In this document: in pieces, positions 7,517 through 58,008 of the stretch
Numbering within the stretch: position 1 is the stretch's first letter
Layout of the letters: every line of letters begins with the position of its first letter
Assembly: GCA_041645325.1 (NCBI GenBank)
Contig: JBAZQI010000002.1
Coordinates: forward strand, 8,850-72,849
DNA from: an archaeon
GTDB taxonomy: Archaea; Iainarchaeota; Iainarchaeia; Iainarchaeales; GCA-2688035
Reading direction: 5' to 3'
DNA: 64,000 nucleotides
Program-made: the position numbers and the translations under genes
Notes under the pieces: model-generated
What the model saw: the letters and a program-made list of their open reading frames with translations, nothing else
Told to the model about the DNA's origin: nothing
Databases searched by the model: none

Positions 7517-7632
7517 AGAAAAATATTGGGTGAAAGGGTATTTTACGCTTTTCCCCGGTCCCTTTTCAATGCCTTCGTTTTTCGCCGAAAACCTTGCCCT
7601 GCTTTTAAATGTTTCCGGCAGCGCTTTTTTTA

Positions 7633-10863: not shown

Positions 10864-12087
10864 TTACCCTGTTTTCATTATGTAAACATAAACCGCTATG
10901 GCAACAAGCACAAGTGCAATGCCGACATAAATCAACGGGTTTATTTCCGGCTGGCTGAACTCAACAAAGCTGTCCTGGCACTGGCTCTCCGAAATGTTTA
11001 CGTCCGTGTATGTTATTGTGCAGCTTATCGGGAACTTTCCGGCTTCGCCGCTGTTTACCGAAAAGTTCACGTACTTTGTTTCCTTTGGCTGTATTGACCC
11101 AATGCCGGCTTCGCCGCCTGTTGTTTCAGTTGCGGAATTTATCCTGATGCCTAAATCATACAATGGATCAAGGCCTATGTTTTTCACGGCGAGCGTCAAT
11201 TCAATGGGCTGGCCCACAAAAGCGTTTTCCTCTTTCTTAACAATAAACGCCTCTATTTTCCTCTCAGGCTGCCTCACATCCAAGGAAACAAGGTTGCTGA
11301 ATTTTGCCTCCTGTTCCTCGAATTCGTTTTCATAGTAAACTATTGCAGGCGGCAAAGTCATGTGCACCGGAACACGGGGCTTGACAACATAGCTTATTTC
11401 AACTGTTTCGCCTGGCTTCACCAAGCCTGTGAAATATGTATCCCCTTCAACAACAGAAAAGGCATTCTTGTCCTCTGCAAGAGGCCTTGCAAATTCAACC
11501 CTTGCATTGGTCACAGCGCTACCCTCATTATGTAGAAGTATTGTTATTGTTGTTTTTTCGCCTATCACAAGCCCGGTTTTTTCGGCATCCATCCTGAAAG
11601 CATTTTCCCCTGAAAAATCGGCAGTCTTGTAAAGCCCGACACCAGAACCGCTTTTGAGCTTAATGCTTGTTATAGTGTTGCCTGTCCCAAGGCAAACCTT
11701 GATTCTGTTTTCCTCTTCCCTCAATGCATTTTTAGGCAGGAAAAGCCTCTCCCAGCAAACCCCTTCTTTGCACTTGAAATCCCCCGCAGAGGCATAATTC
11801 TCGGCAATAACCTTGCCGTTTAAAAAGGCATTAACGTCTATCTTTCCTTCCTGCACAGGCCCAAATTCAAGGCCTATTGACGCAATCGGGTAGATTTCCC
11901 TGTTTTCAATTGCAATATCGGCAGGGTAAATGAATTCAGCCTCAAAGCAGCCTGTATGCCCAGCAGGGCCGTCAACCAAAAAGTCCTCATAACCCATTTC
12001 CCCAAAGCTTCTCTCATAAACGGCTTCGCCAAAAGCCGTTGGCAGAACCAGAAGCGCAACCAATGCGGCAAAAAAACACTTATTCAT
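10864..12087 (-). CDS. Secreted surface protein with CARDB-like beta-domains and C-terminal TM anchor
   Basis: Signal peptide MNKCFFAALVALLVLPTAFGEA. Repeated ~100-aa segments with G..V.I...V.N.G patterns (LAVKNIGLDPLYDL, ITILLHNEGSAVTNARVEF). C-terminal PLIYVGIALVLVAIAVYVYIMKTG. Confidence 0.55.
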   Translation of the reverse strand: MNKCFFAALVALLVLPTAFGEAVYERSFGEMGYEDFLVDGPAGHTGCFEAEFIYPADIAIENREIYPIASIGLEFGPVQEGKIDVNAFLNGKVIAENYASAGDFKCKEGVCWERLFLPKNALREEENRIKVCLGTGNTITSIKLKSGSGVGLYKTADFSGENAFRMDAEKTGLVIGEKTTITILLHNEGSAVTNARVEFARPLAEDKNAFSVVEGDTYFTGLVKPGETVEISYVVKPRVPVHMTLPPAIVYYENEFEEQEAKFSNLVSLDVRQPERKIEAFIVKKEENAFVGQPIELTLAVKNIGLDPLYDLGIRINSATETTGGEAGIGSIQPKETKYVNFSVNSGEAGKFPISCTITYTDVNISESQCQDSFVEFSQPEINPLIYVGIALVLVAIAVYVYIMKTG

Positions 12088-16965: not shown

Positions 16966-18912
16966 ATGAACAAACAATTATTGCTGTTATTCCTCGGGTT
17001 ACTGATTTTGCCAAGCGCGATTTCAGCCTCATGCGGCCTTGCCAACGACAACCAGCTAATCTTCCGGATAAGCGGCGCAACAGACGCGCACGCCGAGCTC
17101 TGGAACGGAGCAAGTGGATATCCCACGGAAATATGCTACAACACGATTTTCGGCTCGGAATATGCTGGCGCAAGCCCGCATTCCGGAAACACCGTGCTAA
17201 AAGCCTCTGCGGCAACAGATGCGCACGTTGAACAATCAAATCAGGCAAACTACCTGACAAACATAAGCTACGGCAGCCTTGCATGCACCTATGGGGCAAA
17301 CTGCGGCGCAGGCGAAACCTGCATTGCCACAATCAGCGGGGCAACAAACGCCCATGTAAGCTCATTGTGCAGCGGCGCAGGAAGCTATCCCCTAAAAGTG
17401 TGCTGCAAAGACACACCTGCGGCTCCGCATTCCTGCGAAATTACAGGCGTTGACCCTGCAACAATCAGGGTTTATGAAGGGGAAACAACAGTAAGCCTTG
17501 ATTATTTGGATTTCTCCTTTAATCCTGCTGCCAGTTCACTTAACTGCGGTGACGGCGGCGCGAGCAGCAATTTTTCCTGCGCAGGAGCCGGTGGCACAGG
17601 CACCTGCAGTTTTGACTGCAGCAACTATGATGATTTGGCCTCTTTTCCATTGGCGGCGTCTTTGCTGGACAATGCGGAAGTGGTTGTTTGCACCAATGAC
17701 GGCGTCTTTATTTTTGTTTACGGCACAATAGTCAAGATTGTTCCGACTTCTTTGAATGCAGGCGATTTTTTTACCACAGCCTATGCCCAGGTGCAGCTTA
17801 GCGGCACCGGCGAACTAGCCGAAGATGGTGAGGCGCCTGTTCCGGATTCTGTGGCATATTTTGCCGACCCGAGAAAAATCTATACTGAAGTGCGTATTTT
17901 TCCGCAAGGCTTTACATGGGATGACTGGGTATTGAAGACTGTGTCTCTTTCCGTGGATATTTCTTATGGAGGCTCATTTACCTTTAATTTTTCCGATAAT
18001 ATCCTCTTTCCGAATTTTGTTGACGACTTTAAGGATCTTCCCGCTGCTGATTACACTTTGCAGGTGAAAACCTATGAGTTTCCAAATACTTTGCTGAATG
18101 AGCCTCCTTCGGTAAACTTCAGCCTTACTGCCGGTGCCAATGTTCCTCCTAATTCAATAATAGACACGCCTGGCTCGAACCAAACAATAACAGTTGGGAA
18201 CAGCATTAATTTTACTGGTCATGGGACAGATACTGATGGGGTAATTGTGGCACACAGTTGGACTTGTGTGGCAGCAAGTGGAATTTGTCCGGCAATTTTT
18301 CCAACGAACCTGCAAAATCCGGGAAGCACGGTATTCAGCACTGTAGGGCAGTACACAATAGCCTATACTGTGCAGGATGATGACGGAGCATGGGATCCAT
18401 CGCCTGCAACGAGAATAATAACAGTCAATGCGGCTGCAGGCTCAGGCGCATACCTGCGGCTGACAAAGATTGATGTGGCGCCTGAAAATTTCAGTGGCGG
18501 TGCGCCGCCTGATTTTACCACGCTGAACGTGACTGTGAAGAACTTCGGCGACTCAACCGTTGCTTCCATAGGCCTTAAGGTTTTTGGGGCAACGGACTTT
18601 TCCATGGCTGCCGGAACAGAGCTTGCTTCCGCAACCTCGGATACCTGTGCCTTGGACCAGGGAGAGGAATGTACATTGCCGTTGGACGAAATTACTGTTT
18701 CCTCTTTGGTGCCTGGCTCCTACAAGTTGATTATAAAAGCCTTTGATAGTGATGGCATTGAACACGATTCTGATTCGGTGTTTTTCGTCGTCATTGGCCC
18801 TGTTCCAGTGCCTGAGCTTGGCCTTGTTTTTGTTCCCCTGCTTGCCCTTTCCGCCCTTGCAATAATGTTCTTTGCAGGCAGAGGAGCGAAAAGGCTAAGA
18901 AATAGCTTATAG
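16966..18912 (+). CDS. Secreted surface protein with three ~40-aa ATDAH Cys-containing repeats, a PKD-like domain and a C-terminal TM/basic sorting-like tail
   Basis: Signal peptide LLLLFLGLLILPSAISASC. Repeats SGATDAHAELWNGASGYPTEICY, ASAATDAHVEQSNQANYLTNISYGSLACTY and SGATNAHVSSLCSGAGSYPLKVCC. PKD-like GHGTDTDGVIVAHSWTC...YTIAYTVQDDDGAWD. C-terminus PVPELGLVFVPLLALSALAIMFFAGRGAKRLRNSL. Confidence 0.6.
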   Translation: MNKQLLLLFLGLLILPSAISASCGLANDNQLIFRISGATDAHAELWNGASGYPTEICYNTIFGSEYAGASPHSGNTVLKASAATDAHVEQSNQANYLTNISYGSLACTYGANCGAGETCIATISGATNAHVSSLCSGAGSYPLKVCCKDTPAAPHSCEITGVDPATIRVYEGETTVSLDYLDFSFNPAASSLNCGDGGASSNFSCAGAGGTGTCSFDCSNYDDLASFPLAASLLDNAEVVVCTNDGVFIFVYGTIVKIVPTSLNAGDFFTTAYAQVQLSGTGELAEDGEAPVPDSVAYFADPRKIYTEVRIFPQGFTWDDWVLKTVSLSVDISYGGSFTFNFSDNILFPNFVDDFKDLPAADYTLQVKTYEFPNTLLNEPPSVNFSLTAGANVPPNSIIDTPGSNQTITVGNSINFTGHGTDTDGVIVAHSWTCVAASGICPAIFPTNLQNPGSTVFSTVGQYTIAYTVQDDDGAWDPSPATRIITVNAAAGSGAYLRLTKIDVAPENFSGGAPPDFTTLNVTVKNFGDSTVASIGLKVFGATDFSMAAGTELASATSDTCALDQGEECTLPLDEITVSSLVPGSYKLIIKAFDSDGIEHDSDSVFFVVIGPVPVPELGLVFVPLLALSALAIMFFAGRGAKRLRNSL

Positions 18913-24235: not shown

Positions 24236-24757
24236 ATGAGCTCCAAAAAAATCGCCTTAATGCTTTCAGCCATGTTCGCGCTTTTGCTGTGCGCAAGCGT
24301 GTTTGCGGACTTTCAGGTTTCTTCCTTTGAAATTGACCACAGCAAGGTTTTCGTGGCGTCGGGTTCATCAGAGCCGGTTGTTGCCGCTGTTTCGGTTCGC
24401 AATCTGGGCTCAAGCGCAGGCAATGCGCGCCTTGAGGTAATTGTCAAAGACGACGATGGAACGGCAATGCTCACTCAAATCGTGCTAATAAACAACCTTG
24501 CGGCCGGTGGCACCAGGGCACTTGGCGCCGCAGACGGCCTTGTTTTTGTCATCCCAGGCGCTTGGGACGCCGGCAATTACACTTTTTATGCAAGTGTTTA
24601 CGATGCAAGCGACAATTTCCTTGATGACCAAAAAATCAGGATTCTGACCCTTCAAATCGACAAGCCTGCTGTCATTCCCGAATTCCAGGCAATCCTGCTT
24701 CCACTGGTTGCGTTTTCTGTCCTTGCCATGCTTTTCTTGTCCGGAAAGCGGAAATGA
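24236..24757 (+). CDS. Small secreted beta-rich protein with PEF-CTERM-like sorting tail
   Basis: Signal peptide ALMLSAMFALLLCASVFA. C-terminus PAVIPEFQAILLPLVAFSVLAMLFLSGKRK is PEF plus TM plus basic, resembling archaeosortase PEF/PGF-CTERM signals. Confidence 0.5.
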   Translation: MSSKKIALMLSAMFALLLCASVFADFQVSSFEIDHSKVFVASGSSEPVVAAVSVRNLGSSAGNARLEVIVKDDDGTAMLTQIVLINNLAAGGTRALGAADGLVFVIPGAWDAGNYTFYASVYDASDNFLDDQKIRILTLQIDKPAVIPEFQAILLPLVAFSVLAMLFLSGKRK

Positions 24758-38077: not shown

Positions 38078-40460
38078 GGTTACGGCCTTTTTCTTTGTCC
38101 TGTTCCTGGTATGCCTTTCACAGGTTTCCCTTGCTTCGCCCGGTGATTTTATTTCCCTGGACCCAAGCACCTGTGGCACATGGGGCGGGGGCAAGCACTG
38201 CTGGCATGAACAAAACGTACAGGGCATCACTAATGTTGATTTTATAATATCCTTTGACAAGCCCGTCGCTTTCGGGGATGGGAACACATATGTAGTGCCA
38301 ATTATGACCCTGATGAGCATAACGAATTTTGTCTCTTATATAAATGTGTGCGTTGACGGCGCTTCAGCCCCGGATGCAGTTCTCCCGGCAGATATCCTTG
38401 TTGATGGCGAAAAGGTCGGTGACAATTACATTAAAACCAATGTCGAATCCTGCCACGGCGGCACAGTATGGAAGGGCAATCAGGGCCCAGTCAAGTACCT
38501 TTTTTCCAAGCAGGGTCTGCACCACGTGCAGATTGTCGTTGCAAGCCAAAACAACGGAACATGCGGCGTAGTCTCACGCGAATTTGACGTTATTGTCGTG
38601 CATCCAGTCCTTTCAGTCAACGGAAGCGCCTCCAGGATAATTTCCTTCGGCAGAAATGAGGCAGAAAAGGCATTCAACATAATCTGGACCATTAAAAACC
38701 TGGGCGGTTTCGCAAGCACTCTGGAAACAGTAACGGCAACAGGCTGTGGCGAAAACCTTGAATGCAATTTCATTGCCTTCGGGCCATTGGACCTAAATCC
38801 GAACGAAAGCATCATTGTAGTGGAAGAGGTCAAGGCAAAAAGACCCGCAGCCATAACCGCGCCTGTGGCAGTGGAAGAACTCGGTATTGAGCTGGGTTAC
38901 ATTGACATATTCGGGTTAAGCCGCCTTAATAAGCAGTCATCACTTCCCGTGAATGTTGCGCTTTTATGGAATGAAGAGCAGCGCTTTCACGTGGAACTGG
39001 TCGGCGGTCAGCAGGATTACTGCATAGGCCAGGATGGCAAGCTCGGCGGCACAGGCCCGGGCGAAGTGCCCCATGTGCTGTTCAATTGGGCTTGGTCAAG
39101 CATAGGCATAAACGAGCCAGGCGCATACAGCTGCGACAAGAAAAGCCCAAATGATCTTGAATACATTTACTGTGACCCCACGCAATTCAGCATAGAGCTG
39201 CTCAAAAGGCTAAACATGATAAAGACCGCGGCTGAAGAGGGAAAATTCGACAAGGCCGCAGAGCTATCGCATTTCCAGGCCTACCTAATCGGCGACAGCA
39301 TAAACCCCGACTTCAGAAAAGACTTTGACTATTACTACAAGACAACGGAATTCTTCGGCGCAGACTGGTACAACAGCCCCAATTCACCCTGGGACCTGTA
39401 CTTTACCGACACCCAGCGCATGGTTTTCAGCCCAGAAAAAATAGATTCCGGCCTTTACGACGTGGAACTTGACTTCGATTTCGAATCCGACAAATACAAG
39501 TTCTTCTGGTCGGAAAACGAGCTTGCCGCCAAAATAACCGTCAGGCTTACCAAAATAAGTAACCCCCTTTCCCAGAACCCGCTTTACTACCTTCCCTTCA
39601 ACGGCGAAGTCGGCCTGCAGCGCATTGACGAAGACGGCCTTGCAAGGCGCAACGGCTACGGCCTCGGCTTCTCAGGGGACGAGCTAAGGCTTGACGAATT
39701 CAGGCTCGGCTCCTTCATCCTGACAAAAGGCGAAGGCGAAAAAATTGTGCAAACAGCATACATGCAGGACTTCTACAAGTCAAACATCTCGGAAAAAGGC
39801 CTTATACTTTCCATAGCAAAGGACGGCTCATCAATGGTGTTTTCGCCCTCATACGCAACGCCCGTAATAATGGAACTCAAGGCAAACGAGGCAACAGCAA
39901 GGGCAGACGGCTACTACTCCGTGCACAACGGCGCAAAAACAATGGTTTCGCCGTCAGGCTACATGAATCTCTGGACAGGCTTTGCCTCAACGCCAATGAC
40001 CTGCGCAAACTTTGACGAAAGCTCGCTGTACTACCAAAGGAACGACGGCACGGCATCCGAAGTCCCGGGCTTGGCAACCACGCCGGAAAACCCGGCCTAC
40101 GGCTTCACCTGGAAAGACGTCCCAGCACAAAACCTCCAGCAGGGCAAACTGTACCTTGAAACAGTCTTCTACACGCCGATAGACTCAGGAATGACCTTGA
40201 GCGGCGAAAGCACTACTGTCCTGATGAGCCCAAGTGGCACAGGGCAGGCAGTCTCGCTTAACTACAAGGGCATGAGCCCAATAATTGAAAGCGTGTTCGG
40301 CCTTGTAAACGACAAGTATGTCTGCGTCAGCCTCAGCGACAGTGCGCTTGAATTCTGGTGGAACCCACAGCGCGTCACCAAGGACCTTGACGGCATAAAA
40401 GCCGCACAAATAAGCGAAGCCTGGATGTCAGGCTGCTCGGTGGAAGGCGAGGCAAAGTAG
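38034..40460 (+). CDS. Large secreted protein (about 800 aa), hypothetical; third gene of overlapping surface-protein operon
   Basis: Overlaps the upstream gene's 3' end. Signal peptide TAFFFVLFLVCLSQVSLASP. A GTG at 38049, directly preceded by GGAGG, is an alternative start. No domain recognised. Confidence 0.55.
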   Translation: MRNLEVRTLKTTCGKVTAFFFVLFLVCLSQVSLASPGDFISLDPSTCGTWGGGKHCWHEQNVQGITNVDFIISFDKPVAFGDGNTYVVPIMTLMSITNFVSYINVCVDGASAPDAVLPADILVDGEKVGDNYIKTNVESCHGGTVWKGNQGPVKYLFSKQGLHHVQIVVASQNNGTCGVVSREFDVIVVHPVLSVNGSASRIISFGRNEAEKAFNIIWTIKNLGGFASTLETVTATGCGENLECNFIAFGPLDLNPNESIIVVEEVKAKRPAAITAPVAVEELGIELGYIDIFGLSRLNKQSSLPVNVALLWNEEQRFHVELVGGQQDYCIGQDGKLGGTGPGEVPHVLFNWAWSSIGINEPGAYSCDKKSPNDLEYIYCDPTQFSIELLKRLNMIKTAAEEGKFDKAAELSHFQAYLIGDSINPDFRKDFDYYYKTTEFFGADWYNSPNSPWDLYFTDTQRMVFSPEKIDSGLYDVELDFDFESDKYKFFWSENELAAKITVRLTKISNPLSQNPLYYLPFNGEVGLQRIDEDGLARRNGYGLGFSGDELRLDEFRLGSFILTKGEGEKIVQTAYMQDFYKSNISEKGLILSIAKDGSSMVFSPSYATPVIMELKANEATARADGYYSVHNGAKTMVSPSGYMNLWTGFASTPMTCANFDESSLYYQRNDGTASEVPGLATTPENPAYGFTWKDVPAQNLQQGKLYLETVFYTPIDSGMTLSGESTTVLMSPSGTGQAVSLNYKGMSPIIESVFGLVNDKYVCVSLSDSALEFWWNPQRVTKDLDGIKAAQISEAWMSGCSVEGEAK

Positions 40461-51332: not shown

Positions 51333-52409
51333 TTGGACCTTGAAAATTTCTATTCTGGCAAAAAATACAGGCTCTACATGGGAATTCCGGCAATCCTTTT
51401 CATCATATTTGCCTTCCTTGCATTCATTTACCCGGCTGTGCCAAAAGGAATTGACCTTCAGGGCGGAACACTCATTGTCATAAGGGGCGACAAGCCGATT
51501 GACGCAGTTGAACTTGAACAGATACTAAACCAGCAATTTGACCTCATTGACCTGAAAGTAAACAGCATCACAGGGCCGAGCGGAAGCGGAGTCAATGTGC
51601 AATTCGCCGCAAGCACCTCAATACAAAATGCATTGCAGCAAGTAGATTCGGCAAAGGCAATGCTTGCCACAAACCCAACAGGGGCGCTGCAGGAGGCCCA
51701 AACCGCCGTGAATTCAATCTCAAGTTTCCTTGGAAGCACCGAACTGCCAAGCCAGCCGGACAAGGCTGTTCCGCAGGCAGAGCTCTACATCATCGAAGCC
51801 AAAAAAAATCTCACCCAAAAAATCCAGGACACCATTATTGGAACATTCTCCCTTCCGGAAGCATCCGCCTTCCAGATAAGGGAAGTCAGCCCGGCATTGG
51901 GCGCATCATTCTGGCAAACAGCCCTGAATGTCAGCATAATGGCCGCAATCCTGATGACACTGGTCATATTCGTCTTTTTCAGGAAAATAGTTCCCACAAT
52001 CGCGGTGCTGCAGGCCGCACTCTTTGATGTCCTTTGTGCGCTTGCCATGATGGCGGTTTTCGCCATTCCACTTTCGCTTAGCAGCATTCCCGCACTTTTA
52101 ATGCTCGTGGGCTACAGCGTTGACACAGACATAATGCTCACGACAAGGGTGCTGCAGGGCAAGGAAGGAACGCCGGCAAAAAGGGCGGCAGGCAGCCTTT
52201 CAACAGGCCTCACAATGACAGGCACGACAATAGCAGCGCTGCTTTCAATGGCGGTTGTTTCCTACCTGAACCAGATAGCTGTGATATTTGAAATTTCAGT
52301 GGTGCTGCTGTTCGGCATGTTCGGAGACCTGATTTCAACCTGGTTCATGAACGCAGGCATAATGCTGTTATACACCGAAAGGAAAAACAAGGGCAAGGGT
52401 GTGTTCTGA
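51333..52409 (+). CDS. secF: Protein-export membrane protein SecF
   Basis: N-terminal TM, GIDLQGGT signature, about 150-aa periplasmic region and a C-terminal six-TM bundle. 358 aa. The shorter gene precedes the longer one, which I recall (unchecked) as the usual archaeal secF-secD order. Confidence 0.7.
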   Translation: MDLENFYSGKKYRLYMGIPAILFIIFAFLAFIYPAVPKGIDLQGGTLIVIRGDKPIDAVELEQILNQQFDLIDLKVNSITGPSGSGVNVQFAASTSIQNALQQVDSAKAMLATNPTGALQEAQTAVNSISSFLGSTELPSQPDKAVPQAELYIIEAKKNLTQKIQDTIIGTFSLPEASAFQIREVSPALGASFWQTALNVSIMAAILMTLVIFVFFRKIVPTIAVLQAALFDVLCALAMMAVFAIPLSLSSIPALLMLVGYSVDTDIMLTTRVLQGKEGTPAKRAAGSLSTGLTMTGTTIAALLSMAVVSYLNQIAVIFEISVVLLFGMFGDLISTWFMNAGIMLLYTERKNKGKGVF

Positions 52410-54022
52410 TGGCCGAACTTTACAAGAATTGGAGGATAATCCTGGTTGCCTTGTTCGTCATTCTTGCCATTGGCATCATAGCATTCAGGGGCGTGCAATT
52501 TGGCATTGATTTCAAGGGCGGAACGCTTTTCCAGGTGCAATTGTCAGAATCCATAAAAGACCTCGATGAAAGGGCAAGGGTTGTGCAGACCATTCAGCAA
52601 AGGCTTGACTGGACAGGCCTCAGGGACATGAGCGTGAACTTTTTCGGCGACGAATTTGTAATAGTCCAGATTGCGGAATCAGACCCTGCGACCATTGAAA
52701 GGATAGAATCGCTGCTGAAAAAACAGGGCATCTTTGAAGCCACAATTGACGGCAACGTGATTTTTTCCGGCGAAGACATAATTGAAATGCCAAAAGACCC
52801 GGCAAAAGGCTACTCGCTTTACTCCGAAGGCTCGGGCGTAAGGTGGGTTCTGCCGTTTGTGCTGAAAAGCTCGGCCGCACAGCGCTTCACCGAAATGACC
52901 TTCCACAAGTGCGACCTTGTTTCCTTTTCCGCCGAAACAGGCCGCGAGTACGAATGCGCAGAAACATTCTTTTTCATAGACCGGCCAAGGGAAGCAGTAA
53001 TCGTGATGCCAAAAGACCTTTTCTTTGACGAAGAACAATTGCTGCTGCAGGGAATTCCAAGCGAAGGAATCTCCGAGGGCACAAAAATTGAGGAAGTAAT
53101 GCTCAACGCGCAGATTCCATACTACCTGGTTGAAAAAGGCCTGCTTTCGCAGGAACAGCTTGAAAGCCTGAAAGGAAACGCGCAAAAAAGGCCTGTTGCA
53201 ATAATCCCAAACAGCCTTCCGGAAGAGGCACAGCAGCAGCTTGAGGCCGCAGGCTTTGAGCTGAAGGTTATTCAGGCAGAAGAAGGAAACCCGTTTGTTT
53301 TTGACGCCGTTGGAATGCGTAGCATCATCGGGTTAAGCGAAAGCGTTGCCCAAATGGACGTGGCAAGGATTGAAGATGCAAAGCCAATGGACAAGTTGCA
53401 GATTTTTGGCTCTGCCGGAACAAGGGACGCCGCTGTGCAAAGAAGGGCTGACCTTGAAATACTGCTCCAATCAGGAAGCCTCTCGGTTTCAGTCAAAAGC
53501 ATCAGCACTGAAACAATTTCACCGCTGCTCGGGGAAACCTTCCTGTGGGATGCCGGCATAACAGCCCTGCTTGCGCTTGCCGCAGTCGCCCTCGTGCTCT
53601 TCATAAGATACAGGTCACTAAAGCTTGTTTCAGTCAACATGTCAATTGACATAATTGAAGTCCTGATAACAGTTGCCCTTGTTTCCCTGATAAGCAAATT
53701 TGACCTCGGCGCAATTGCAGGAATCCTTGCAGCAGTGGGAATAGGCGTTGACGACCAAATAGTAATAATGGACGAGCTGAAAAAAGGCGAAAAAGGCGAA
53801 ACAGGAAACCTTATTGCAAGGGCAAAAAGGGCCTTTTTCATAGTGGTAGCCGCATCGGCAACAATAATCGCGGCAATGCTCCCCATAATACTCATAGGCT
53901 TCGGCCTTGGCAGGCTGGTGGGCTTTGCAATAACAACCATAATGGGCACTCTTGTCGGCGTGCTGATAACAAGGCCTGCTTTCGGCGAAATAGCGAAAAA
54001 ACTGTTTGAAAAAAACGAGTGA
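52409..54022 (+). CDS. secD: Protein-export membrane protein SecD
   Basis: ATGA start/stop overlap with secF. GIDFKGGT signature and a large (~330 aa) periplasmic domain, with C-terminal TM bundle VGIGVDDQIVIMDE. 537 aa. Confidence 0.75.
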   Translation: MAELYKNWRIILVALFVILAIGIIAFRGVQFGIDFKGGTLFQVQLSESIKDLDERARVVQTIQQRLDWTGLRDMSVNFFGDEFVIVQIAESDPATIERIESLLKKQGIFEATIDGNVIFSGEDIIEMPKDPAKGYSLYSEGSGVRWVLPFVLKSSAAQRFTEMTFHKCDLVSFSAETGREYECAETFFFIDRPREAVIVMPKDLFFDEEQLLLQGIPSEGISEGTKIEEVMLNAQIPYYLVEKGLLSQEQLESLKGNAQKRPVAIIPNSLPEEAQQQLEAAGFELKVIQAEEGNPFVFDAVGMRSIIGLSESVAQMDVARIEDAKPMDKLQIFGSAGTRDAAVQRRADLEILLQSGSLSVSVKSISTETISPLLGETFLWDAGITALLALAAVALVLFIRYRSLKLVSVNMSIDIIEVLITVALVSLISKFDLGAIAGILAAVGIGVDDQIVIMDELKKGEKGETGNLIARAKRAFFIVVAASATIIAAMLPIILIGFGLGRLVGFAITTIMGTLVGVLITRPAFGEIAKKLFEKNE

Positions 54023-54023
54023 C

Positions 54024-54521
54024 TCAAAGAAGCGAAGCGAATTCCTTTACCTTTGCAGCCCTCTTTGTAAGCCAGTACCAAAGCAGGATTATTGCCGCGC
54101 TAACCGCAAACCATGAGGCTGTATGAAGCCCCTCGGCCATTTCCGGTCCGAATGAAATTGCGGCCAAAAGCACAAGGTATAAGCGCAGAAGATTAAGCGG
54201 GAAAAGAGCCAGCGTGCCAAATGCAAGAAGCAAAATCTTTTTCTTCAGTTCAGGCCTGCGCAGCGCAAAAATTATCGAGGCAAGCACGCTTATTCCGACA
54301 AGGCCTGTGCAGTTCGGCACAATCTGGAAAGCATGCGAATCAAAGAAAATGGCATTTCCTTCCGCCTGCAGGCCAAGCGCGTTCGCCTCAAGCAATGCAA
54401 TGCCGTTTTCAAGAAAGCCCAAGGGCAGGGAAACAATCAAGAACTGCAGCAGGGCGTAGATAACAAAAAATTTTACAAGAAAAACAAGCGCCTTTTCCCA
54501 GAACCGCTTTGCTTTGGACAT
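54024..54521 (-). CDS. Short exosortase/archaeosortase-family protein (candidate archaeosortase)
   Basis: 165-aa polytopic membrane protein. FQIVPNCTGLVGISVLASIIFALRRPE carries a Cys within a CxG motif, followed about 20 residues later by Arg, as in the exosortase/archaeosortase catalytic Cys/Arg core. One nt downstream of carS on the same strand. Confidence 0.5.
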   Translation of the reverse strand: MSKAKRFWEKALVFLVKFFVIYALLQFLIVSLPLGFLENGIALLEANALGLQAEGNAIFFDSHAFQIVPNCTGLVGISVLASIIFALRRPELKKKILLLAFGTLALFPLNLLRLYLVLLAAISFGPEMAEGLHTASWFAVSAAIILLWYWLTKRAAKVKEFASLL

Positions 54522-54522
54522 T

Positions 54523-55050
54523 TCACCACGGAACCCTTTTTATTTTCCCGATATAGGCAACCCTGTTGCTCACAACATGTAACAGAAGCGTGAAAGCAAG
54601 CAGAAAAATTGCTTCAAGCGTGCTTGGAACAGCGAGCAATGCGCCGGCTGCAAGGCCACCTGCAACAAAATCAAGCTGGTCAAGCAAAAACACGCTTTTT
54701 CCCCTTTCAATGTTAAGCCTTCTTTTCAGGAAGCTTCCGGCAAAGTCGCCGAGAATTGCCCCAAAGGCAAGCAGCACGCCGTACCAGAAATAATTTGTGC
54801 CCAATATTTCCCCTGTCTGGGGAAACACAACATTTATCGCCAGCACCCCCAAAGAGGCGAAGAAAATGCCGGCAAATGTGCCCTTTATGCTTTTCCCGTT
54901 TCCAAGGATTCTGCGGCCGTCAAAAAAATTCCTGCCAAAATCAATCGGCGTTTTTCCGCCAAAAATCAGCGCAAAGCCGTTGCACAAATAAAGCGGAATT
55001 GCCATCAGGCTAACCCTCAAAACAAACAAAACCCAGAAATCCATAAACAA
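54523..55050 (-). CDS. carS: CDP-archaeol synthase (CTP:2,3-di-O-geranylgeranyl-sn-glycero-1-phosphate cytidyltransferase)
   Basis: 175-aa membrane protein with NGFALIFGGKTPIDFG...DGRRILGNGKSIKGTFAGIFF...GDFAGSFLKRRL, matching the DUF46/CarS motifs. Confidence 0.75.
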   Translation of the reverse strand: MFMDFWVLFVLRVSLMAIPLYLCNGFALIFGGKTPIDFGRNFFDGRRILGNGKSIKGTFAGIFFASLGVLAINVVFPQTGEILGTNYFWYGVLLAFGAILGDFAGSFLKRRLNIERGKSVFLLDQLDFVAGGLAAGALLAVPSTLEAIFLLAFTLLLHVVSNRVAYIGKIKRVPW

Positions 55051-55116
55051 TCCCTTTCCCTGAAAGAATTTGCTTCAACCTGATTTAAACCTTTTGCCGT
55101 GCCGATTGCCTGCCCA

Positions 55117-55794
55117 TTACACCAGCCAAACAAGCGCCCAGGCCAATGCCGTGCCGCCAAGGCTCCCCAAAAAGTTCACTTCCGCATTGTTCAGCATGCC
55201 CTTTCTTTCAAAGGCAGCGCCAAAAAAGCTGTCAGCAAGCGACCCAAAGACGCCGCATACCGCAAGCACGATGAAAAGGAACCAGTTTTGGAAGAACAAA
55301 AAATGCACTGCCGCAATAACCAGCGCGCCGGCAAGCGCAGCCGCCATTCCCAATGGCGTTATGCCGCCGTCCGTTCCAGGCTCAACCTTTTTCCAGGTAG
55401 TGATTAGCACGGGCTTTCTTTTTGAAAGCAGGCCTATTTCGCTGCTAAGGGTGTCAGCCAAGGCGCTTGCAAAAGCCGCAAAGAAGCCGAAGGGAAAGCC
55501 AAATGCAAGCGCAAGAATCGCTGTGCCGCTGTTTCCCAAAATGTTTCCCGCAGTCCTTGTCTCATGCCTTGGCTTTCTATTTGCGGCGTAAAGCGTTCCG
55601 GCTTCGGCCACGGCAAAGAACAGTATTGCAACAAAAAAGTACTTGAGGTCGCCTTCTGCCAGAAGAAAAATGGCTATGCCAACAATGTTTGCTATGAGCA
55701 CGCCCTCAAAATTAAGAAGCTTTCTTTTGAATGACAATGCGCTGAAAACACCGAGTATGACAAAGAGGATTAGCACTTCCAGCGGAAGGTCCAT
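55117..55794 (-). CDS. DUF92/TMEM19-family integral membrane protein
   Basis: GNILGNSGTAILALAF...ALADTLSSEIGLLSKRKPVLITTWKKVEPGTDGGITPLGMAAALAGA is the DUF92 signature (GN.LGNGG...LADT.ASEIG..S...P.LIT....V..G..GG(V/I)S..G). Confidence 0.6.
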   Translation of the reverse strand: MDLPLEVLILFVILGVFSALSFKRKLLNFEGVLIANIVGIAIFLLAEGDLKYFFVAILFFAVAEAGTLYAANRKPRHETRTAGNILGNSGTAILALAFGFPFGFFAAFASALADTLSSEIGLLSKRKPVLITTWKKVEPGTDGGITPLGMAAALAGALVIAAVHFLFFQNWFLFIVLAVCGVFGSLADSFFGAAFERKGMLNNAEVNFLGSLGGTALAWALVWLV

Positions 55795-55795
55795 T

Positions 55796-56443
55796 TTACT
55801 TCCCTTCAATCAGCCTGCTTTTGATTACTTCGACCCTTTTAATGGGCGCAATCTTTGTCAAATGCTTAAAAACCTTCGCGGCAATTGCGCCAAAAATCAT
55901 TTCCTGCGAGACCTCGACAAAAGGCTTTTTCTCCACCGCTTTTTCAACCATCTCGCCCATGCTTTTCCTGATGTCTGCTTCCTGCTGCCTTGACAGCTTT
56001 CTTGCCGACAAAGCAATGGTTTTCACGTGCACCTTCTTTTTGTCCGCGGTTTCAAGCGTCTGCACAATCTCAATCTTGCTTGTCCTTCTCCTCACAAGCC
56101 TGTTTACAAAGCCAGGGCTTGCCTCGTGGCCCAAGGTAATGCAGTTCGCATTGTTTCCCTCAACCCTTTCAATCCTGAACAGCACACTGATATAACGCTT
56201 CTGCCTCTGCCCTGCAAGCTGGCCCAAATCAACCCTTATAATCCTGCCTTCAACGTTCTTGGGCTTTTCCCCGACCGTTTCGCCTATTATGGCCTTGCTA
56301 AACTCGTCAGGCGCAACAATGTTATACCACTGCTTTTTCTTCCACTTGTCAACAGTCCTGCCCTTTTTTGGCTTTGCCTTGGCCTGCTGTTTCTGCTCGG
56401 CCTCTTTTTCTTTTTTTTCCGCTTTTTCCGCCTTGTCAGCCAT
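55796..56443 (-). CDS. rps3ae: 30S ribosomal protein S3Ae (eS1)
   Basis: KKGRTVDKWKKKQWYNIVAPDEF...GRIIRVDLGQL matches eS1 (KK.K.VDPF.KK.WYD(I/V).AP..F). Start taken at MADKAEK. Confidence 0.85.
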   Translation of the reverse strand: MADKAEKAEKKEKEAEQKQQAKAKPKKGRTVDKWKKKQWYNIVAPDEFSKAIIGETVGEKPKNVEGRIIRVDLGQLAGQRQKRYISVLFRIERVEGNNANCITLGHEASPGFVNRLVRRRTSKIEIVQTLETADKKKVHVKTIALSARKLSRQQEADIRKSMGEMVEKAVEKKPFVEVSQEMIFGAIAAKVFKHLTKIAPIKRVEVIKSRLIEGK

Positions 56444-56574
56444 AAAAATCACTTCATTTTCACAACAATCGAATCAAGCTTTTTTGCAAGCCTTTCAATC
56501 TCTTCATTGCCCTCTTCCTTCAAAACCTCTTTTCCGTTCCTCTTCAAAACAAATTCATAATGCATTCAAAAACC

Positions 56575-57054
56575 CTATTTTGCAAGCAAGGAGGCTGTTT
56601 CCGCAGAATATCTCCATTCCATCGGCAGAACTCCCTTTTGCTTGTAATACTTTTCAAGCGCCTTGATTTTTGACACAGTGAGCATGAGGCCGCGCTTTGC
56701 GCTCATGTCCTTTTTGTTTTTTGCCAAGTGTTCCCTCAGGGTAACGCTTTTCCTTATAAGGCTCATCATGTCGTCCGGAATAGGCGGCAAAAGGCTGTGC
56801 TCCCTGAGAATCGCGCAAAGCTTTTTTCCCATTGCCTTGCCGACCATTGGAACGCCGTACTGGTCCCTTAAAATCATCCCTATTTCGGAAGCGCTGTGGC
56901 CCTCGTTTGCCAAATGCACTATAGCCTCGGTTATCTCCGCAGGCTTCAGTTCAACAAAATCCCTTTTCTGGTGCTTTCCCTTCTTCGGCCTGCGGTTTTT
57001 TTCATGTTCCACATGCCCTTCAGTTTCGCCTGAAACCGCTTCCTCCAAACTCAT
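56575..57054 (-). CDS. rps15: 30S ribosomal protein S15 (uS15)
   Basis: GHSASEIGMILRDQYGVP...LPPIPDDMMSLIRKSVTLREHLAKNKKDMSAKRGLMLTVSKIKALEKYY. Start placed at the first in-frame ATG (MSLEEAV), giving about 159 aa, typical of archaeal uS15. The ORF continues 144 codons upstream with no stop. Confidence 0.8.
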   Translation of the reverse strand: MSLEEAVSGETEGHVEHEKNRRPKKGKHQKRDFVELKPAEITEAIVHLANEGHSASEIGMILRDQYGVPMVGKAMGKKLCAILREHSLLPPIPDDMMSLIRKSVTLREHLAKNKKDMSAKRGLMLTVSKIKALEKYYKQKGVLPMEWRYSAETASLLAK

Positions 57055-57486
57055 TTCCTCTTCTTCGGCAGCATGCACGTGCCCTTTCTTTGCATGCCCG
57101 GCTTCCTCTTCCGCATAAGCCGCTTCTTCCTTATGGTTTTTTTCTGCATGCCTTTTCCCGTGCTCTTCGGCAGGCTCCTCTTCCCCCTTGGGCTCAATCT
57201 TCTTTTCATGCTTTTCATCTTTGGAAGCATGCTTTTTTTCGGCTTTATGGCTATCTTCCTTGGCCTTATGGCTGTCCTTTTTGGCTTTCTCTTCAGCCTT
57301 ATGGCTGTGCTTTTCTTCAGCCTTCTTTTCAGCATTCTCTTCTTTCTTTTCAGCCTTTTTCGCCAAAAAACTCACTCCCAATAGAGAGCTACCTTCCCGC
57401 CCCGCAAAGGCACGGGAAAGACGATAACAAAAATCGTAATAAGATTGGATTTGGAAACCTTTAAAAACAATGCGCCTTGCGCCCAA
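57055..57486 (-). repeat. In-frame K/E/H-rich tandem-repeat region upstream of rps15 (possible N-terminal extension)
   Basis: Nucleotide tandem repeats of 24-27 nt (GGCCTTATGGCTGTCC, AGCCTTATGGCTGTGC, GGCTTTATGGCTATC) encode ...EKHSHKAEEKAKKDSHKAKEDSHKAEKKHASKDEKHEKK... in frame with uS15. No ATG within the extension. Confidence 0.6.
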
Positions 57487-57569: not shown

Positions 57570-57791
57570 TTATTTGCTTAATAGTTCTGCTATTTCTGTT
57601 TCATTTAGCTTTGCTTGTTTCAATATCGCATTCAACGTTCCTTTTGATATTTCTTTGTGCATCGGAATTATTGCTTTTGCATTTCTTGAAATGGAAACCA
57701 TTTTGGCATGTGAGCCTTTTCTGCCATATATTTGAAAGCCTTTTCTTGAGAGAAACTTTGCCAGTTCCAAGCCAGAAACGGTTTTAGGCAT
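57570..57791 (-). CDS. hicA: HicA-family toxin-like protein
   Basis: 73 aa: GLELAKFLSRKGFQIYGRKGSHAKM...IPMHKEISKGTLNAILKQAKL fits HicA (KEL.K.L.K.GF.....KGSH.......VP.H.....GT...ILKQAGL). Confidence 0.6.
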   Translation of the reverse strand: MPKTVSGLELAKFLSRKGFQIYGRKGSHAKMVSISRNAKAIIPMHKEISKGTLNAILKQAKLNETEIAELLSK

Positions 57792-58008
57792 GCATTAGAA
57801 CCTTTGCCTTAAATTCAACAACTTCGCGTTTTTCCGGCAAGCCTATAGGGTCACATTCAAGAAAGAGTTCAACAGCCTCTTTAAGGTTCTTTAATGCGCT
57901 TTTCCTTGTTTTTCCTTGGGATGCAACTCCAAGCTCCGGGCAATAGGAAACAAACCACTTTTCTTCTTTCGTAAGAACCGCTGAAAACTTTTGTTCCATC
58001 AACATCAC
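57784..58008 (-). CDS. hicB: HicB-family antitoxin-like protein (UPF0150-type)
   Basis: 74 aa: KFSAVLTKEEKWFVSYCPELGVASQGKTRKSALKNLKEAVELFLE fits the HicB N-domain (Y..V.E.E..G.Y.A..P.L.G..SQG.T.EEA..N.KEA..L.LE). Overlaps hicA by 8 nt. Confidence 0.6.
   Translation of the reverse strand: MMLMEQKFSAVLTKEEKWFVSYCPELGVASQGKTRKSALKNLKEAVELFLECDPIGLPEKREVVEFKAKVLMHA

What the first reader, a model, noticed from the sequence alone, without database searches (positions are those of the whole stretch)
54024..55050. carS-archaeosortase-like two-gene operon beside secFD, with candidate C-terminal-tail substrates in the window
Seen in sequence: CDP-archaeol synthase (54523-55050) is followed 1 nt later, on the same strand, by a 165-aa exosortase/archaeosortase-like membrane protein with an NCTG...(20 aa)...RRP arrangement. 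Both sit directly next to secF-secD. Several secreted proteins in this window end in TM plus basic tails: 24236-24757 (...PEFQAILLPLVAFSVLAMLFLSGKRK), 16966-18912 (...PVPELGLVF...FFAGRGAKRLR), 36314-38077 and 10864-12087. Established knowledge: archaeosortase ArtA cleaves PGF-CTERM proteins and attaches an archaetidyl-type lipid anchor. A sortase gene co-transcribed with the enzyme making the CDP-archaeol lipid donor would be a tidy functional coupling, and a short (165 aa) archaeosortase would be an unusually minimal form. Inference: this may be a compact surface-protein lipid-anchoring module.
Basis: partly seen in the sequence, partly recalled or inferred. Interest (0 to 1): 0.7.

Follow-up and report, generated by a model that had tools for sequence, protein, structure and literature searches.

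The report
DPANN archaeosortase co-transcribed with CDP-archaeol synthase
A small membrane protease of the archaeosortase family sits in an operon with the enzyme that makes the activated archaeal lipid CDP-archaeol, a pairing kept in about 40 related tiny-archaeon (DPANN) genomes, and nearby surface proteins carry a matching C-terminal sorting tail, which supports but does not prove a protein lipid-anchoring module.

Summary
54024-54521(-) encodes a 165-aa exosortase/archaeosortase-family protein (TIGR04178 54.7 bits, cut-off 23). It starts 1 nt after the stop of a bona fide CarS (54523-55050). It lies tail-to-tail with secD.

The catalytic guess was half right. Cys71 is invariant. The "RRP" arginines are not conserved. 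The invariant residues are C71, N110, R113 and H133.

A length of 165 aa is normal for short archaeosortases (ArtB, ArtD, ArtE and pacearchaeosortase models are 150-167 positions). No named subfamily cut-off is reached, so this is an unnamed clade from Iainarchaeota and Micrarchaeota.

CarS lies directly upstream on the same strand in 39 of 39 related loci, down to 27-36% identity and in several different surroundings. The secDF adjacency is only lineage-level synteny.

Two window proteins (24236-24757 and 16966-18912) share a conserved tail, PxP[VI]PE[LF]...PL[IL]A[FL]S[VA]LA..FF[SA]G[KR][KR]. About 19 homologues of varied architecture carry it too. It resembles PEF-CTERM but scores below that model's cut-off.

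Verdict: a new member of a known kind of system. The gene linkage parallels the known artA-pssA-pssD cluster. Lipid attachment remains inferred.

The parts
54024..54521 (-). Short (165 aa) archaeosortase-family membrane protein of an unnamed Iainarchaeota/Micrarchaeota subfamily. Probable catalytic residues are C71, R113 and H133, with N110, W137 and W148 also invariant.
   Evidence: TIGR04178 54.7 bits (cut-off 23) and PF09721 38.6 bits (GA 25.7). All named subfamilies are below cut-off. Invariant residues come from alignments A1 and A3. AF2 model has pLDDT 90.8, with four long helices and an extracytoplasmic beta-hairpin.
54523..55050 (-). carS, CDP-archaeol (CDP-2,3-bis-O-geranylgeranyl-sn-glycerol) synthase. 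The likely true start is the ATG at 55044. Its stop is 1 nt before the archaeosortase ATG.
   Evidence: NF003114 165.7 bits (cut-off 148) and PF01864 138.9 bits. Sequence read directly. CarS is directly upstream of the sortase in 39 of 39 related loci.
55083..55089 (-). TTTAAAT, an archaeal TATA-box-like element in the 66-nt DUF92-carS gap, about 40 nt upstream of the carS ATG. It is a possible internal promoter for carS-art.
   Evidence: Read from the sequence. Inference only. The promoter scanner offered does not cover archaeal promoters and was not run.
24236..24757 (+). Secreted 173-aa protein with an N-terminal signal peptide. Residues 144-173 (nt 24665-24754) form the tail PAVIPEFQAILLPLVAFSVLAMLFLSGKRK. 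Strongest candidate substrate.
   Evidence: The tail is almost invariant in five orthologues of 61-95% identity. It scores 13-18 bits on PEF-CTERM TIGR03024, cut-off 23.
16966..18912 (+). Secreted 648-aa PKD-domain surface protein. Residues ~611-648 (nt 18796-18909) form the tail PVPVPELGLVFVPLLALSALAIMFFAGRGAKRLRNSL. Candidate substrate.
   Evidence: The best BLASTP HSP against the 173-aa protein is tail against tail. About 19 homologues of 310-1003 aa keep the same tail. The positional orthologue P0100 lies on the same 122-kb contig as the sortase orthologue P0009. PKD hits are weak.
10864..12087 (-). Secreted 407-aa CARDB/TRAP-beta-like protein ending in ...SQPEINPLIYVGIALVLVAIAVYVYIMKTG. 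Weak candidate substrate: it has PEI followed by a TM, but only one basic residue and lacks the conserved P+8 and S+13.
   Evidence: Not matched by the tail HMM.
55117..55809 (-). DUF92 (PF01940) integral membrane protein upstream in the same gene string. Context only; not shown to be part of the module.
   Evidence: PF01940 161.7 bits. Present within 1.4 kb upstream of carS in 28 of 40 related loci, all Iainarchaeota-type.
51333..54022 (+). secF (51333-52409) and secD (52409-54022), convergent with the archaeosortase gene. Context only.
   Evidence: A convergent SecD lies downstream in 27 of 33 loci with enough DNA, but not in the Micrarchaeia-type loci.

Best explanation
54024-54521 encodes a functional short archaeosortase, a polytopic membrane cysteine protease or transpeptidase. 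It belongs to a so-far unnamed subfamily found in the DPANN phyla Iainarchaeota and Micrarchaeota, and it is transcribed together with carS.

Its substrates are Sec-exported surface proteins that end in a tripartite domain: the motif P-x-P-[VI]-P-E-[LF] abutting a conserved TM helix (..P-L-[IL]-A-[FL]-S-[VA]-L-A..F-F) and then a G-[KR]-[KR] cluster. The window holds at least two of them, 24236-24757 and 16966-18912.

By analogy with ArtA, Cys71 attacks the chain at or next to the PE[LF] motif at the outer membrane face, assisted by R113 and H133. The TM-plus-basic remnant is released. The new C-terminus is then passed to a membrane lipid made from CDP-archaeol, most plausibly an amine-bearing lipid such as archaetidylethanolamine, so the protein stays lipid-anchored.

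Shown here: family membership, invariant residues, operon arrangement, conservation of the carS-art pair, and existence and conservation of the tail. Inferred: cleavage, the cleavage site, lipid attachment, the identity of the lipid, and the reason for the carS linkage (local supply of the lipid-donor precursor, or co-regulation of envelope biogenesis).
For: - Family membership: TIGR04178 54.7 bits against a cut-off of 23; PF09721 38.6 bits against 25.7. All 12 diverse members match the signature.
- Catalytic residues: C71, R113 and H133 are invariant in 23- and 12-sequence alignments down to 30% identity. Cys/Arg/His is the suspected triad of the family (bioRxiv 10.1101/2023.06.07.544157). 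ArtA C173 and R214 are 41 residues apart (PMC9263693); here the spacing is 42.
- Structure: the AF2 model is confident, with pLDDT 90.8.
- Operon: the carS stop and the art start are 1 nt apart.
- Conserved pairing: CarS is directly upstream on the same strand in 39 of 39 loci. These include five Micrarchaeia-type loci at 27-36% identity whose other neighbours differ.
- Tail: conserved in orthologues, shared between unrelated architectures, and present in the same genome as a sortase orthologue.
- Precedent: artA-pssA-pssD are clustered in Methanosarcina, PssA uses CDP-archaeol, and PssA and PssD are needed for ArtA-dependent lipidation in H. volcanii (PMC7157517).
Against: - There is no biochemical evidence of any kind.
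- CarS is a housekeeping enzyme needed for all polar lipids. The gene string also contains ribosomal protein genes (S15, S3Ae), so operon membership alone does not prove a mechanistic link.
- CDP-archaeol itself has no obvious nucleophile to resolve a thioester. A further enzyme of the PssA/PssD type is therefore needed, and none was found in the window. The window is only 64 kb of the genome.
- Genome-wide co-occurrence of tail and sortase could not be computed.
- The tails score below the PEF-CTERM cut-off.
- No carS-art fusion protein was seen among the 61 homologues (lengths 112-236 aa).
Confidence: 0.65

Rival explanations
1. The sortase is real and processes the PE[LF]-tailed proteins, but its position after carS is inherited operon structure with no mechanistic coupling. 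It would be a general 'membrane/envelope housekeeping' gene string in small, streamlined genomes.
For: The string S15-S3Ae-DUF92-carS-art is conserved with ribosomal protein genes that clearly have nothing to do with lipids. Iainarchaeota and Micrarchaeota are both DPANN, so common descent could explain the shared pair. In haloarchaea, artA, pssA and pssD function together although they are unclustered (PMC7157517), so clustering is not required for function.
Against: The pair is the only adjacency kept in all 39 loci. S15, S3Ae, DUF92 and SecDF are lost or moved in L038-L043, where sortase identity is 27-36%. Adjacency that outlives the surrounding synteny is the usual signature of functional linkage. 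The pathway logic also matches the artA-pssA-pssD precedent.
Confidence: 0.25
2. The 165-aa protein is a non-proteolytic relative of exosortases, for example a CarS accessory subunit or lipid-handling membrane protein. On this reading the C-terminal tails are ordinary permanent TM anchors.
For: No activity data exist for any short archaeosortase. The protein reaches no named-subfamily cut-off. The tails are below the PEF-CTERM cut-off. The strict pairing with a lipid enzyme could mean a lipid role.
Against: Cys, Arg and His are invariant at the family's signature positions across 30%-identity homologues. A plain TM anchor would not conserve a P-E-[LF] motif, an internal Pro at +8 and a Ser at +13 across proteins of unrelated architecture. 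Such conservation points to recognition by a dedicated intramembrane enzyme (argument in bioRxiv 10.1101/2023.06.07.544157).
Confidence: 0.07
3. The sortase cleaves its substrates and releases them, or hands them to a non-lipid acceptor such as a glycan or S-layer component, without any lipid anchor. This is what has been considered for bacterial PEP-CTERM/exosortase systems.
For: Lipid attachment has been shown only for ArtA. The acceptor for every other family member is unknown. No PssA/PssD-like gene was seen in the window.
Against: The conserved linkage to carS and the archaeal ArtA precedent favour a lipid acceptor.
Confidence: 0.15

Closest known systems
Archaeosortase A (ArtA, TIGR04125) / PGF-CTERM system of Haloferax volcanii, with PssA and PssD
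   Same: Same superfamily signature, with conserved Cys and Arg at nearly the same spacing (41 against 42 residues). Tripartite C-terminal signal (motif abutting a TM, then basic residues) on Sec-exported surface proteins. Pathway link to CDP-archaeol-derived lipids.
   Different: ArtA is about 300 aa; this protein is 165 aa and scores 24.8 bits against ArtA's cut-off of 75. The signal motif is PE[LF], not PGF. The linked lipid gene is carS, one step upstream of pssA. The host is DPANN, not Euryarchaeota.
artA-pssA-pssD gene cluster of Methanosarcina spp. (PMC7157517)
   Same: An archaeosortase gene is physically clustered with enzymes of the CDP-archaeol to archaetidylserine to archaetidylethanolamine branch.
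   Different: Here the partner is CarS, the producer of CDP-archaeol. No pssA or pssD is in the cluster. [quoted passage not shown]
Archaeosortase C (TIGR03762) / PEF-CTERM (TIGR03024)
   Same: The tail begins with PEF or PEL directly before the TM. PEF-CTERM is the only sorting-domain model that repeatedly gives weak hits, 10-18 bits.
   Different: All tails are below the 23-bit cut-off, and several give no hit at all. The enzyme scores only 23.1 bits on ArtC (cut-off 100). The ArtC model is 274 positions long, so ArtC is a long form.
Short archaeosortases: ArtD (TIGR04175), ArtE (TIGR04124), ArtB (TIGR04144) and pacearchaeosortase (NF033505)
   Same: Same compact size (models of 150-167 positions) and the same core. 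ArtD is the best-scoring subfamily (43.4 bits). Pacearchaeosortase is likewise a DPANN form.
   Different: All scores are far below cut-off: 43 against 125, 34 against 95, 28 against 150 and 31 against 80. This is therefore a separate clade. Whether those subfamilies are also linked to carS was not tested.
Bacterial exosortase XrtA / PEP-CTERM
   Same: Homologous enzyme core. The sorting motif begins with P-E and abuts the TM.
   Different: Bacterial; usually about 260-500 aa; linked to exopolysaccharide loci rather than ether-lipid synthesis. Scores 20.1 bits against a cut-off of 208.

Membership tests
Exosortase/archaeosortase superfamily (TIGR04178 signature, Pfam PF09721) | Score above the curated cut-off of the family signature models | tested here: met
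   TIGR04178 54.7 bits (cut-off 23) over residues 65-151. PF09721 38.6 bits (GA 25.7). 12 of 12 diverse relatives also match.
Exosortase/archaeosortase superfamily | Near-invariant Cys, Arg and His (suspected catalytic triad) | tested here: met
   C71, R113 and H133 are invariant in A1 (23 sequences) and A3 (12 sequences, down to 30% identity). Cys-to-Arg spacing is 42, against 41 in ArtA. Equivalence to the ArtA residues rests on spacing and on the region covered by the signature model, not on a direct alignment.
Exosortase/archaeosortase superfamily | Polytopic integral membrane protein with the active site at the outer membrane face | tested here: inconclusive
   The AF2 model (pLDDT 90.8) has helices 3-31, 35-49, 74-86, 92-124 and 126-155 plus a beta-hairpin at 52-66. 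By the positive-inside rule, C71, R113 and H133 would sit near the outer leaflet and RRPELKKK in the cytoplasm.
Exosortase/archaeosortase superfamily | Cognate tripartite C-terminal sorting domain on several proteins of the same genome | tested here: met
   Two clear instances within 64 kb (24236-24757 and 16966-18912). The tail is conserved in orthologues and across architectures. It co-occurs with a sortase orthologue on one contig. Genome-wide co-occurrence was not computed.
Exosortase/archaeosortase superfamily | C-terminal endoproteolysis or transpeptidation of substrates | not testable with these tools
   Requires biochemistry or proteomics.
Archaeosortase A / PGF-CTERM | TIGR04125 at or above 75 bits, and PGF-CTERM substrates | tested here: not met
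   24.8 bits. No PGF-CTERM hit on any scanned tail, even at E<=10.
Archaeosortase C / PEF-CTERM | TIGR03762 at or above 100 bits, and tails at or above 23 bits on TIGR03024 | tested here: not met
   Enzyme 23.1 bits. Tails 10-18 bits or no hit.
Archaeosortase D, ArtE, ArtB and pacearchaeosortase | Score above the respective NCBIfam cut-off (125, 95, 150 and 80 bits) | tested here: not met
   43.4, 34.1, 27.9 and 31.1 bits. No member of A3 does better than E=4e-13 on ArtD.
CDP-archaeol synthase CarS (NF003114, PF01864), for 54523-55050 | Score above the equivalog cut-off, full-length match | tested here: met
   165.7 bits (cut-off 148), covering model positions 7-172 of 172. PF01864 138.9 bits.

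The most novel reading that the evidence does not exclude
Across Iainarchaeota and Micrarchaeota, CarS and a minimal archaeosortase form a dedicated membrane module, often with a divergently transcribed S49 (SppA-like) peptidase and, in Iainarchaeota, a DUF92/VTE6-like putative CTP-dependent lipid kinase. In this module, activation of archaeol lipids to CDP-archaeol is directly channelled into C-terminal lipid anchoring of PE[LF]-CTERM surface proteins, and the S49 peptidase clears the released TM peptides. The lipids may be scavenged from a host. This would extend archaeosortase-dependent lipid anchoring outside Euryarchaeota. It would also tie surface-protein display in reduced, host-dependent archaea to lipid salvage.
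Probability: 0.25. Interest if true: 0.65.

Novelty: new member of a known kind. Interest (0 to 1): 0.45.

Why it matters
Experimental knowledge of archaeosortases comes from one enzyme, H. volcanii ArtA. The review read here describes the family as occurring in a subset of Euryarchaeota. The lipid donor and the one-step or two-step mechanism are still open questions.

A second, independent and far more strictly conserved gene linkage between an archaeosortase and the CDP-archaeol pathway strengthens the lipid-anchoring model. This time the linkage is in DPANN archaea and involves carS itself.

The finding also gives a compact four-helix enzyme, with a defined sorting tail, that could be tested heterologously. 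It supplies the seed for a new sortase subfamily model and a new CTERM sorting-domain model, which would improve annotation of DPANN surface proteomes. These proteomes are central to how such small archaea attach to hosts.

Tried and rejected
- Direct alignment to H. volcanii ArtA. I had no ArtA sequence and no homology searches left. Residue equivalence therefore rests on spacing and on the span of the signature model.
- The primary paper, Haft et al. 2012 (PMC3256604), is not held. The cognate signals of ArtB to ArtE could not be checked from it.
- The search for related loci with the 23-sequence alignment failed because no stretch was conserved enough. A narrower alignment worked.
- A CarS-anchored scan of metagenome contigs failed for the same reason. 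It was meant to ask whether other archaeal lineages pair carS with a sortase.
- A tail HMM searched against all ORFs of the window and 43 loci recovered only its own training sequences above noise. The about 8 kb around the sortase rarely holds substrates, so this says little.
- Rejected: 'RRP' as the catalytic Arg (not conserved).
- Rejected: 36314-38077 and 7609-10632 as substrates (no PE motif, long non-basic cytoplasmic tails).
- Rejected: secDF as part of the module (convergent, and lost in Micrarchaeia).
- A literature search for DUF92 in archaea returned only irrelevant DUF92x hits.
- No carS-sortase fusion was found among 61 homologues.
Full report
**1. Observation**

The two ORFs are exactly as described. 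54024-54521(-) encodes 165 aa. 54523-55050(-) encodes 175 aa from a TTG, or 173 aa from the ATG at 55044, which matches the 169-174-aa CarS of most Iainarchaeota relatives. The carS stop (TGA, 54525-54523) is followed by a single base and then the ATG of the second gene. secF (51333-52409) and secD (52409-54022) lie on the other strand and converge on the 165-aa gene. The two stop codons are 1 nt apart. The gene string on the minus strand is rpS15 (56575-57486), rpS3Ae (55796-56452), DUF92 (55117-55809), carS, then the sortase-like gene.

**2. What the 165-aa protein is**

- It passes the curated cut-offs of both general family models. Pfam Exosortase_EpsH scores 38.6 bits (GA 25.7). The NCBIfam exosortase/archaeosortase signature TIGR04178 scores 54.7 bits (cut-off 23, E=9e-15) over residues 65-151.
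- The upstream protein passes the CarS equivalog model (NF003114, 165.7 bits, cut-off 148).
- In an alignment of 23 homologues (40-76% identity) the invariant residues are K17, F18, C71, G73, F85, P90, K95, G102, L106, N110, R113, H133, W137 and W148.
- After adding Micrarchaeia members (30% identity), the invariant core is K17, F18, C71, G73, L80, L106, N110, R113, H133, W137 and W148.
The 'RRP' arginines (R88, R89) are variable: NRP, RKP, CKP, SRP, KKP and TKP all occur.
- The invariant Arg is R113, 42 residues after the Cys. In H. volcanii ArtA the essential residues are C173, R214 and R253 (PMC9263693), a Cys-to-Arg spacing of 41.
- Cys, Arg and His are the suspected triad of the whole family (bioRxiv 10.1101/2023.06.07.544157).
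- An AlphaFold2 model built on the alignment is confident (pLDDT 90.8, pTM 0.80). It shows helices 3-31, 35-49, 74-86, 92-124 and 126-155, and a beta-hairpin at 52-66.
- With the basic N-terminus, the RRPELKKK loop and the basic C-terminus placed inside, C71, R113 and H133 would all lie towards the outer leaflet. That is where a motif abutting a substrate TM would sit. This is an inference from the positive-inside rule, because no coordinates were available to me.

**3. Subfamily and size**

No named subfamily cut-off is approached:

| Subfamily | Score (bits) | Cut-off (bits) |
|---|---|---|
| ArtD | 43.4 | 125 |
| ArtE | 34.1 | 95 |
| pacearchaeosortase | 31.1 | 80 |
| ArtB | 27.9 | 150 |
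| ArtA | 24.8 | 75 |
| ArtC | 23.1 | 100 |

The same holds for 12 diverse relatives. The protein therefore belongs to an unnamed clade. Its length is ordinary for the short class, whose models (ArtD 150, ArtE 153, ArtB 156, pacearchaeosortase 167 positions) are the same size. 'Unusually minimal' is not supported.

**4. Who carries it**

Sequence searches returned 61 homologues of 112-236 aa. The few that are named come from Candidatus Diapherotrites or Micrarchaeota MAGs. A scan of one genome per GTDB species found 35 loci. Nearly all are labelled Candidatus Iainarchaeum (phylum Iainarchaeota, kingdom Nanobdellati, i.e. DPANN), plus two Micrarchaeia. The window is thus from an Iainarchaeota-type DPANN archaeon.

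**5. Is the carS-sortase adjacency conserved?**

I annotated 40 non-redundant related loci with phmmer, using the window's proteins as queries.

- CarS lies immediately upstream on the same strand in 39 of them. The one exception (L011) has only about 100 nt of upstream DNA.
- Estimated spacing ranges from -22 to +118 nt.
- The wider string S15-S3Ae-DUF92-...-carS-art, followed by convergent secD-secF-NOG1, is typical of Iainarchaeota. DUF92 is present in 28 loci. A convergent SecD is present in 27 of 33 loci with enough downstream DNA.
- That wider string is not kept in the most distant loci. L038, L039, L040 and L043 keep an S49 peptidase (divergent), carS and art, and are flanked by AlaRS or other genes. 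L041 has secF-secD upstream, in a different arrangement from the window's convergent downstream secD-secF. L042 has a large CARDB-type surface protein upstream and a Lon_C-like gene downstream.
- Sortase identity in these loci is 27-36%.

The pair is therefore the one adjacency that outlives all surrounding synteny. This is good comparative evidence for functional linkage, although both phyla are DPANN and common descent contributes. No carS-sortase fusion was seen.

**6. Substrates**

- 24236-24757 ends PAVIPEFQAILLPLVAFSVLAMLFLSGKRK.
- 16966-18912 ends PVPVPELGLVFVPLLALSALAIMFFAGRGAKRLRNSL.

Both have N-terminal signal peptides. Their best BLASTP alignment is tail against tail (28 aa, 39% identity, 68% positives).

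*Conservation.* Five orthologues of the 173-aa protein (61-95% identity) keep the tail almost invariant, more so than the mature domain. A full HMMER search with the 648-aa protein gave 150 listed representatives. Twenty-two of them have a C-terminal TM with basic residues near the C-terminus, and about 19 of those carry the same domain on proteins of 310-1003 aa with differing architectures.

*Consensus.* Aligning the 24 clear instances gives P-[AV]-P-[VI]-P-E-[LF]-x-[LA]-x-L-L-P-L-[IL]-A-[FL]-S-[VA]-L-A-x-L-F-F-[SA]-G-[KR]-[KR]. The motif abuts the TM without a spacer. The TM itself carries conserved positions (Pro at +8, Ser at +13). Both features are described for signals read by deeply membrane-embedded sorting enzymes.

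*Co-occurrence.* One tail-bearing protein, P0100, is the positional orthologue of 16966-18912 (next to the proteasome and FKBP genes, as in the window). It lies on the same 122,219-bp Iainarchaeum contig as the sortase orthologue P0009.

*Known models.* The only one that responds is PEF-CTERM (TIGR03024). It always scores below its 23-bit cut-off (10-18 bits), and several tails give no hit.

*More distant relatives.* Secreted proteins close to the sortase gene in more distant Iainarchaeota end in looser [IVT]-P-[DE]-x-x + TM + K/R tails. Examples are L003, L026, L031, L036, L016 and L018. This would fit a signal that drifts together with its enzyme, but it was not tested further.

*The other named candidates.* 10864-12087 (…QPEINPLIYVG…MKTG) is a weak candidate. 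36314-38077 and 7609-10632 do not fit.

**7. Mechanism**

Shown:
- a family member with intact signature residues;
- a translationally tight carS-art pair;
- strict conservation of that pair;
- a conserved tripartite tail on exported proteins of the same genomes.

Inferred, by analogy with ArtA (PMC7157517):
- Cys71 cleaves at or next to PE[LF], forming a thioester.
- The TM-plus-basic remnant is released.
- The new C-terminus is transferred to an amine-bearing lipid derived from CDP-archaeol.

CarS makes the common precursor, so the linkage would secure or co-regulate donor supply. A TATA-like TTTAAAT at 55083-55089 in the DUF92-carS gap could give the pair its own promoter (inference only).

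A weakness remains. CDP-archaeol itself is not an obvious nucleophile, so a PssA/PssD-type step is still needed. No such gene is in the window.

**8. Comparison with what is known**

- The closest functional precedent is the artA-pssA-pssD cluster of Methanosarcina, together with the demonstrated need for PssA and PssD in ArtA-dependent lipidation in H. volcanii. PssA consumes CDP-archaeol.
- The present case differs in several ways. The enzyme subfamily is short and unnamed. The signal is PE[LF] rather than PGF. The partner gene is carS, one step earlier in the pathway. The host is DPANN rather than Euryarchaeota. [quoted passage not shown]
- I found no paper in the held library that mentions an archaeosortase together with Iainarchaeota, Diapherotrites or Micrarchaeota in this sense, or a carS-sortase operon.
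- NCBI and JGI already label some members 'exosortase/archaeosortase family protein'.

**9. Rivals**

- (a) The sortase is real but the carS adjacency is inherited operon structure without mechanistic meaning. This is supported by the ribosomal genes in the same string. It is weakened by the survival of only this pair in rearranged loci.
- (b) The protein is a non-proteolytic lipid-related protein and the tails are plain anchors. The invariant Cys/Arg/His and the motif conservation inside the tails argue against this.
- (c) The sortase cleaves and then releases the substrate, or uses a non-lipid acceptor. This cannot be excluded.

**10. Verdict**

This is a new member (subfamily plus cognate signal) of the known archaeosortase/CTERM kind of system. 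Its carS linkage is strictly conserved, was not found in the literature searched here, and is biologically sensible. Interest is moderate. It adds independent genomic support for lipid-coupled archaeosortase action and offers a compact, testable system. The central chemistry remains inferred.

**11. Dead ends**

- afdb50 was unavailable.
- Haft 2012 was not held.
- The tail HMM found nothing new in the sortase-flanking loci.
- The DUF92 literature search was unproductive.

Noticed in passing
L002 4377-5354(-), L038 6210-7313(-), L039 4179-5093(-), L040 3334-4248(-), L043 3260-4267(-) and 12 further loci; absent from window 55051-55116: An S49 (SppA-like, PF01343 with NfeD1b_N) membrane peptidase is transcribed divergently, immediately upstream of carS-art. 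It is present in 16-17 of 39 related loci, including four of the six most distant, Micrarchaeia-type loci (L038, L039, L040, L043). The window's lineage lacks it at this position and anywhere in the 64 kb. It could clear the TM peptides released by the sortase.
   Followed up: partly
window 55117-55809 (-): A DUF92 (PF01940) membrane protein lies directly upstream of carS, with a 14-nt overlap with rpS3Ae. This arrangement is conserved in 28 Iainarchaeota-type loci. From my own knowledge, DUF92 corresponds to COG1836, which includes plant VTE6 phytyl-phosphate kinase (the COG1836-VTE6 link is in PMC9782597). A CTP-dependent prenyl or lipid kinase next to CarS would fit a lipid-salvage route in a DPANN archaeon.
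   Followed up: partly
window 20461-22302, 24805-26667, 26878-28563 (+): Three paralogous secreted proteins of about 560-620 aa have lipobox-like signal peptides (…ALSGC, …LSSGC, …ALSGC). Two have weak Peptidase_M64 matches. They are probable archaeal lipoproteins, i.e. N-terminal lipid anchoring alongside the C-terminal sortase system. An AliA_AliB gene appears in related locus L042.
   Followed up: partly
L003 1070-2800, L026 1152-4604, L031 1692-2165, L036 498-4376, L016 1261-3900, L018 2631-5171: In more distant Iainarchaeota, secreted proteins a few kb upstream of the sortase operon end in looser [IVT]-P-[DE]-x-x + TM + KK/KR tails (for example VPDNGIIVIIAALAIVVGLLSKRRN). Several share a Cys-rich motif just before the tail. 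The sorting motif may co-vary with the sortase.
   Followed up: partly
window 56575-57486 (-): Ribosomal protein S15 (S13/S15 N domain from residue 173) carries a K/E/H-rich N-terminal extension of about 170 aa. Relatives have 139-245 aa, so the extension is variable in length. The annotated TTG start may also be too far upstream.
   Followed up: no
window 57570-57791 (-) and 57784-58008 (-): Two small overlapping ORFs look like a HicA-type toxin (…GSHAKM…) and its HicB-like antitoxin. In L001 a HicA_toxin gene sits between the sortase gene and secD instead. The window ORFs were not tested with models.
   Followed up: no
L006, L007, L034 (genome contigs records): Contigs carrying the full Iainarchaeota S15-S3Ae-DUF92-carS-art-secDF synteny are deposited in MAGs labelled Chloroflexi, Thaumarchaeota and Candidatus Falkowbacteria (all AB_1215 bins). 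These are probably binning errors.
   Followed up: no
window 31809-36317 (+), 36314-38077 (+), 38004-40460 (+): A cluster of very large surface proteins, including a 1502-aa protein with four CarboxypepD_reg repeats and an N-terminal TM anchor. The genes overlap by 4 to 74 nt. None carries the PE[LF] tail, so not all envelope proteins of this organism use the sortase route.
   Followed up: partly
window 55083-55089 (-): A TTTAAAT element in the 66-nt DUF92-carS gap is a possible archaeal TATA box. It would give carS-art its own promoter inside the longer ribosomal-protein gene string.
   Followed up: no
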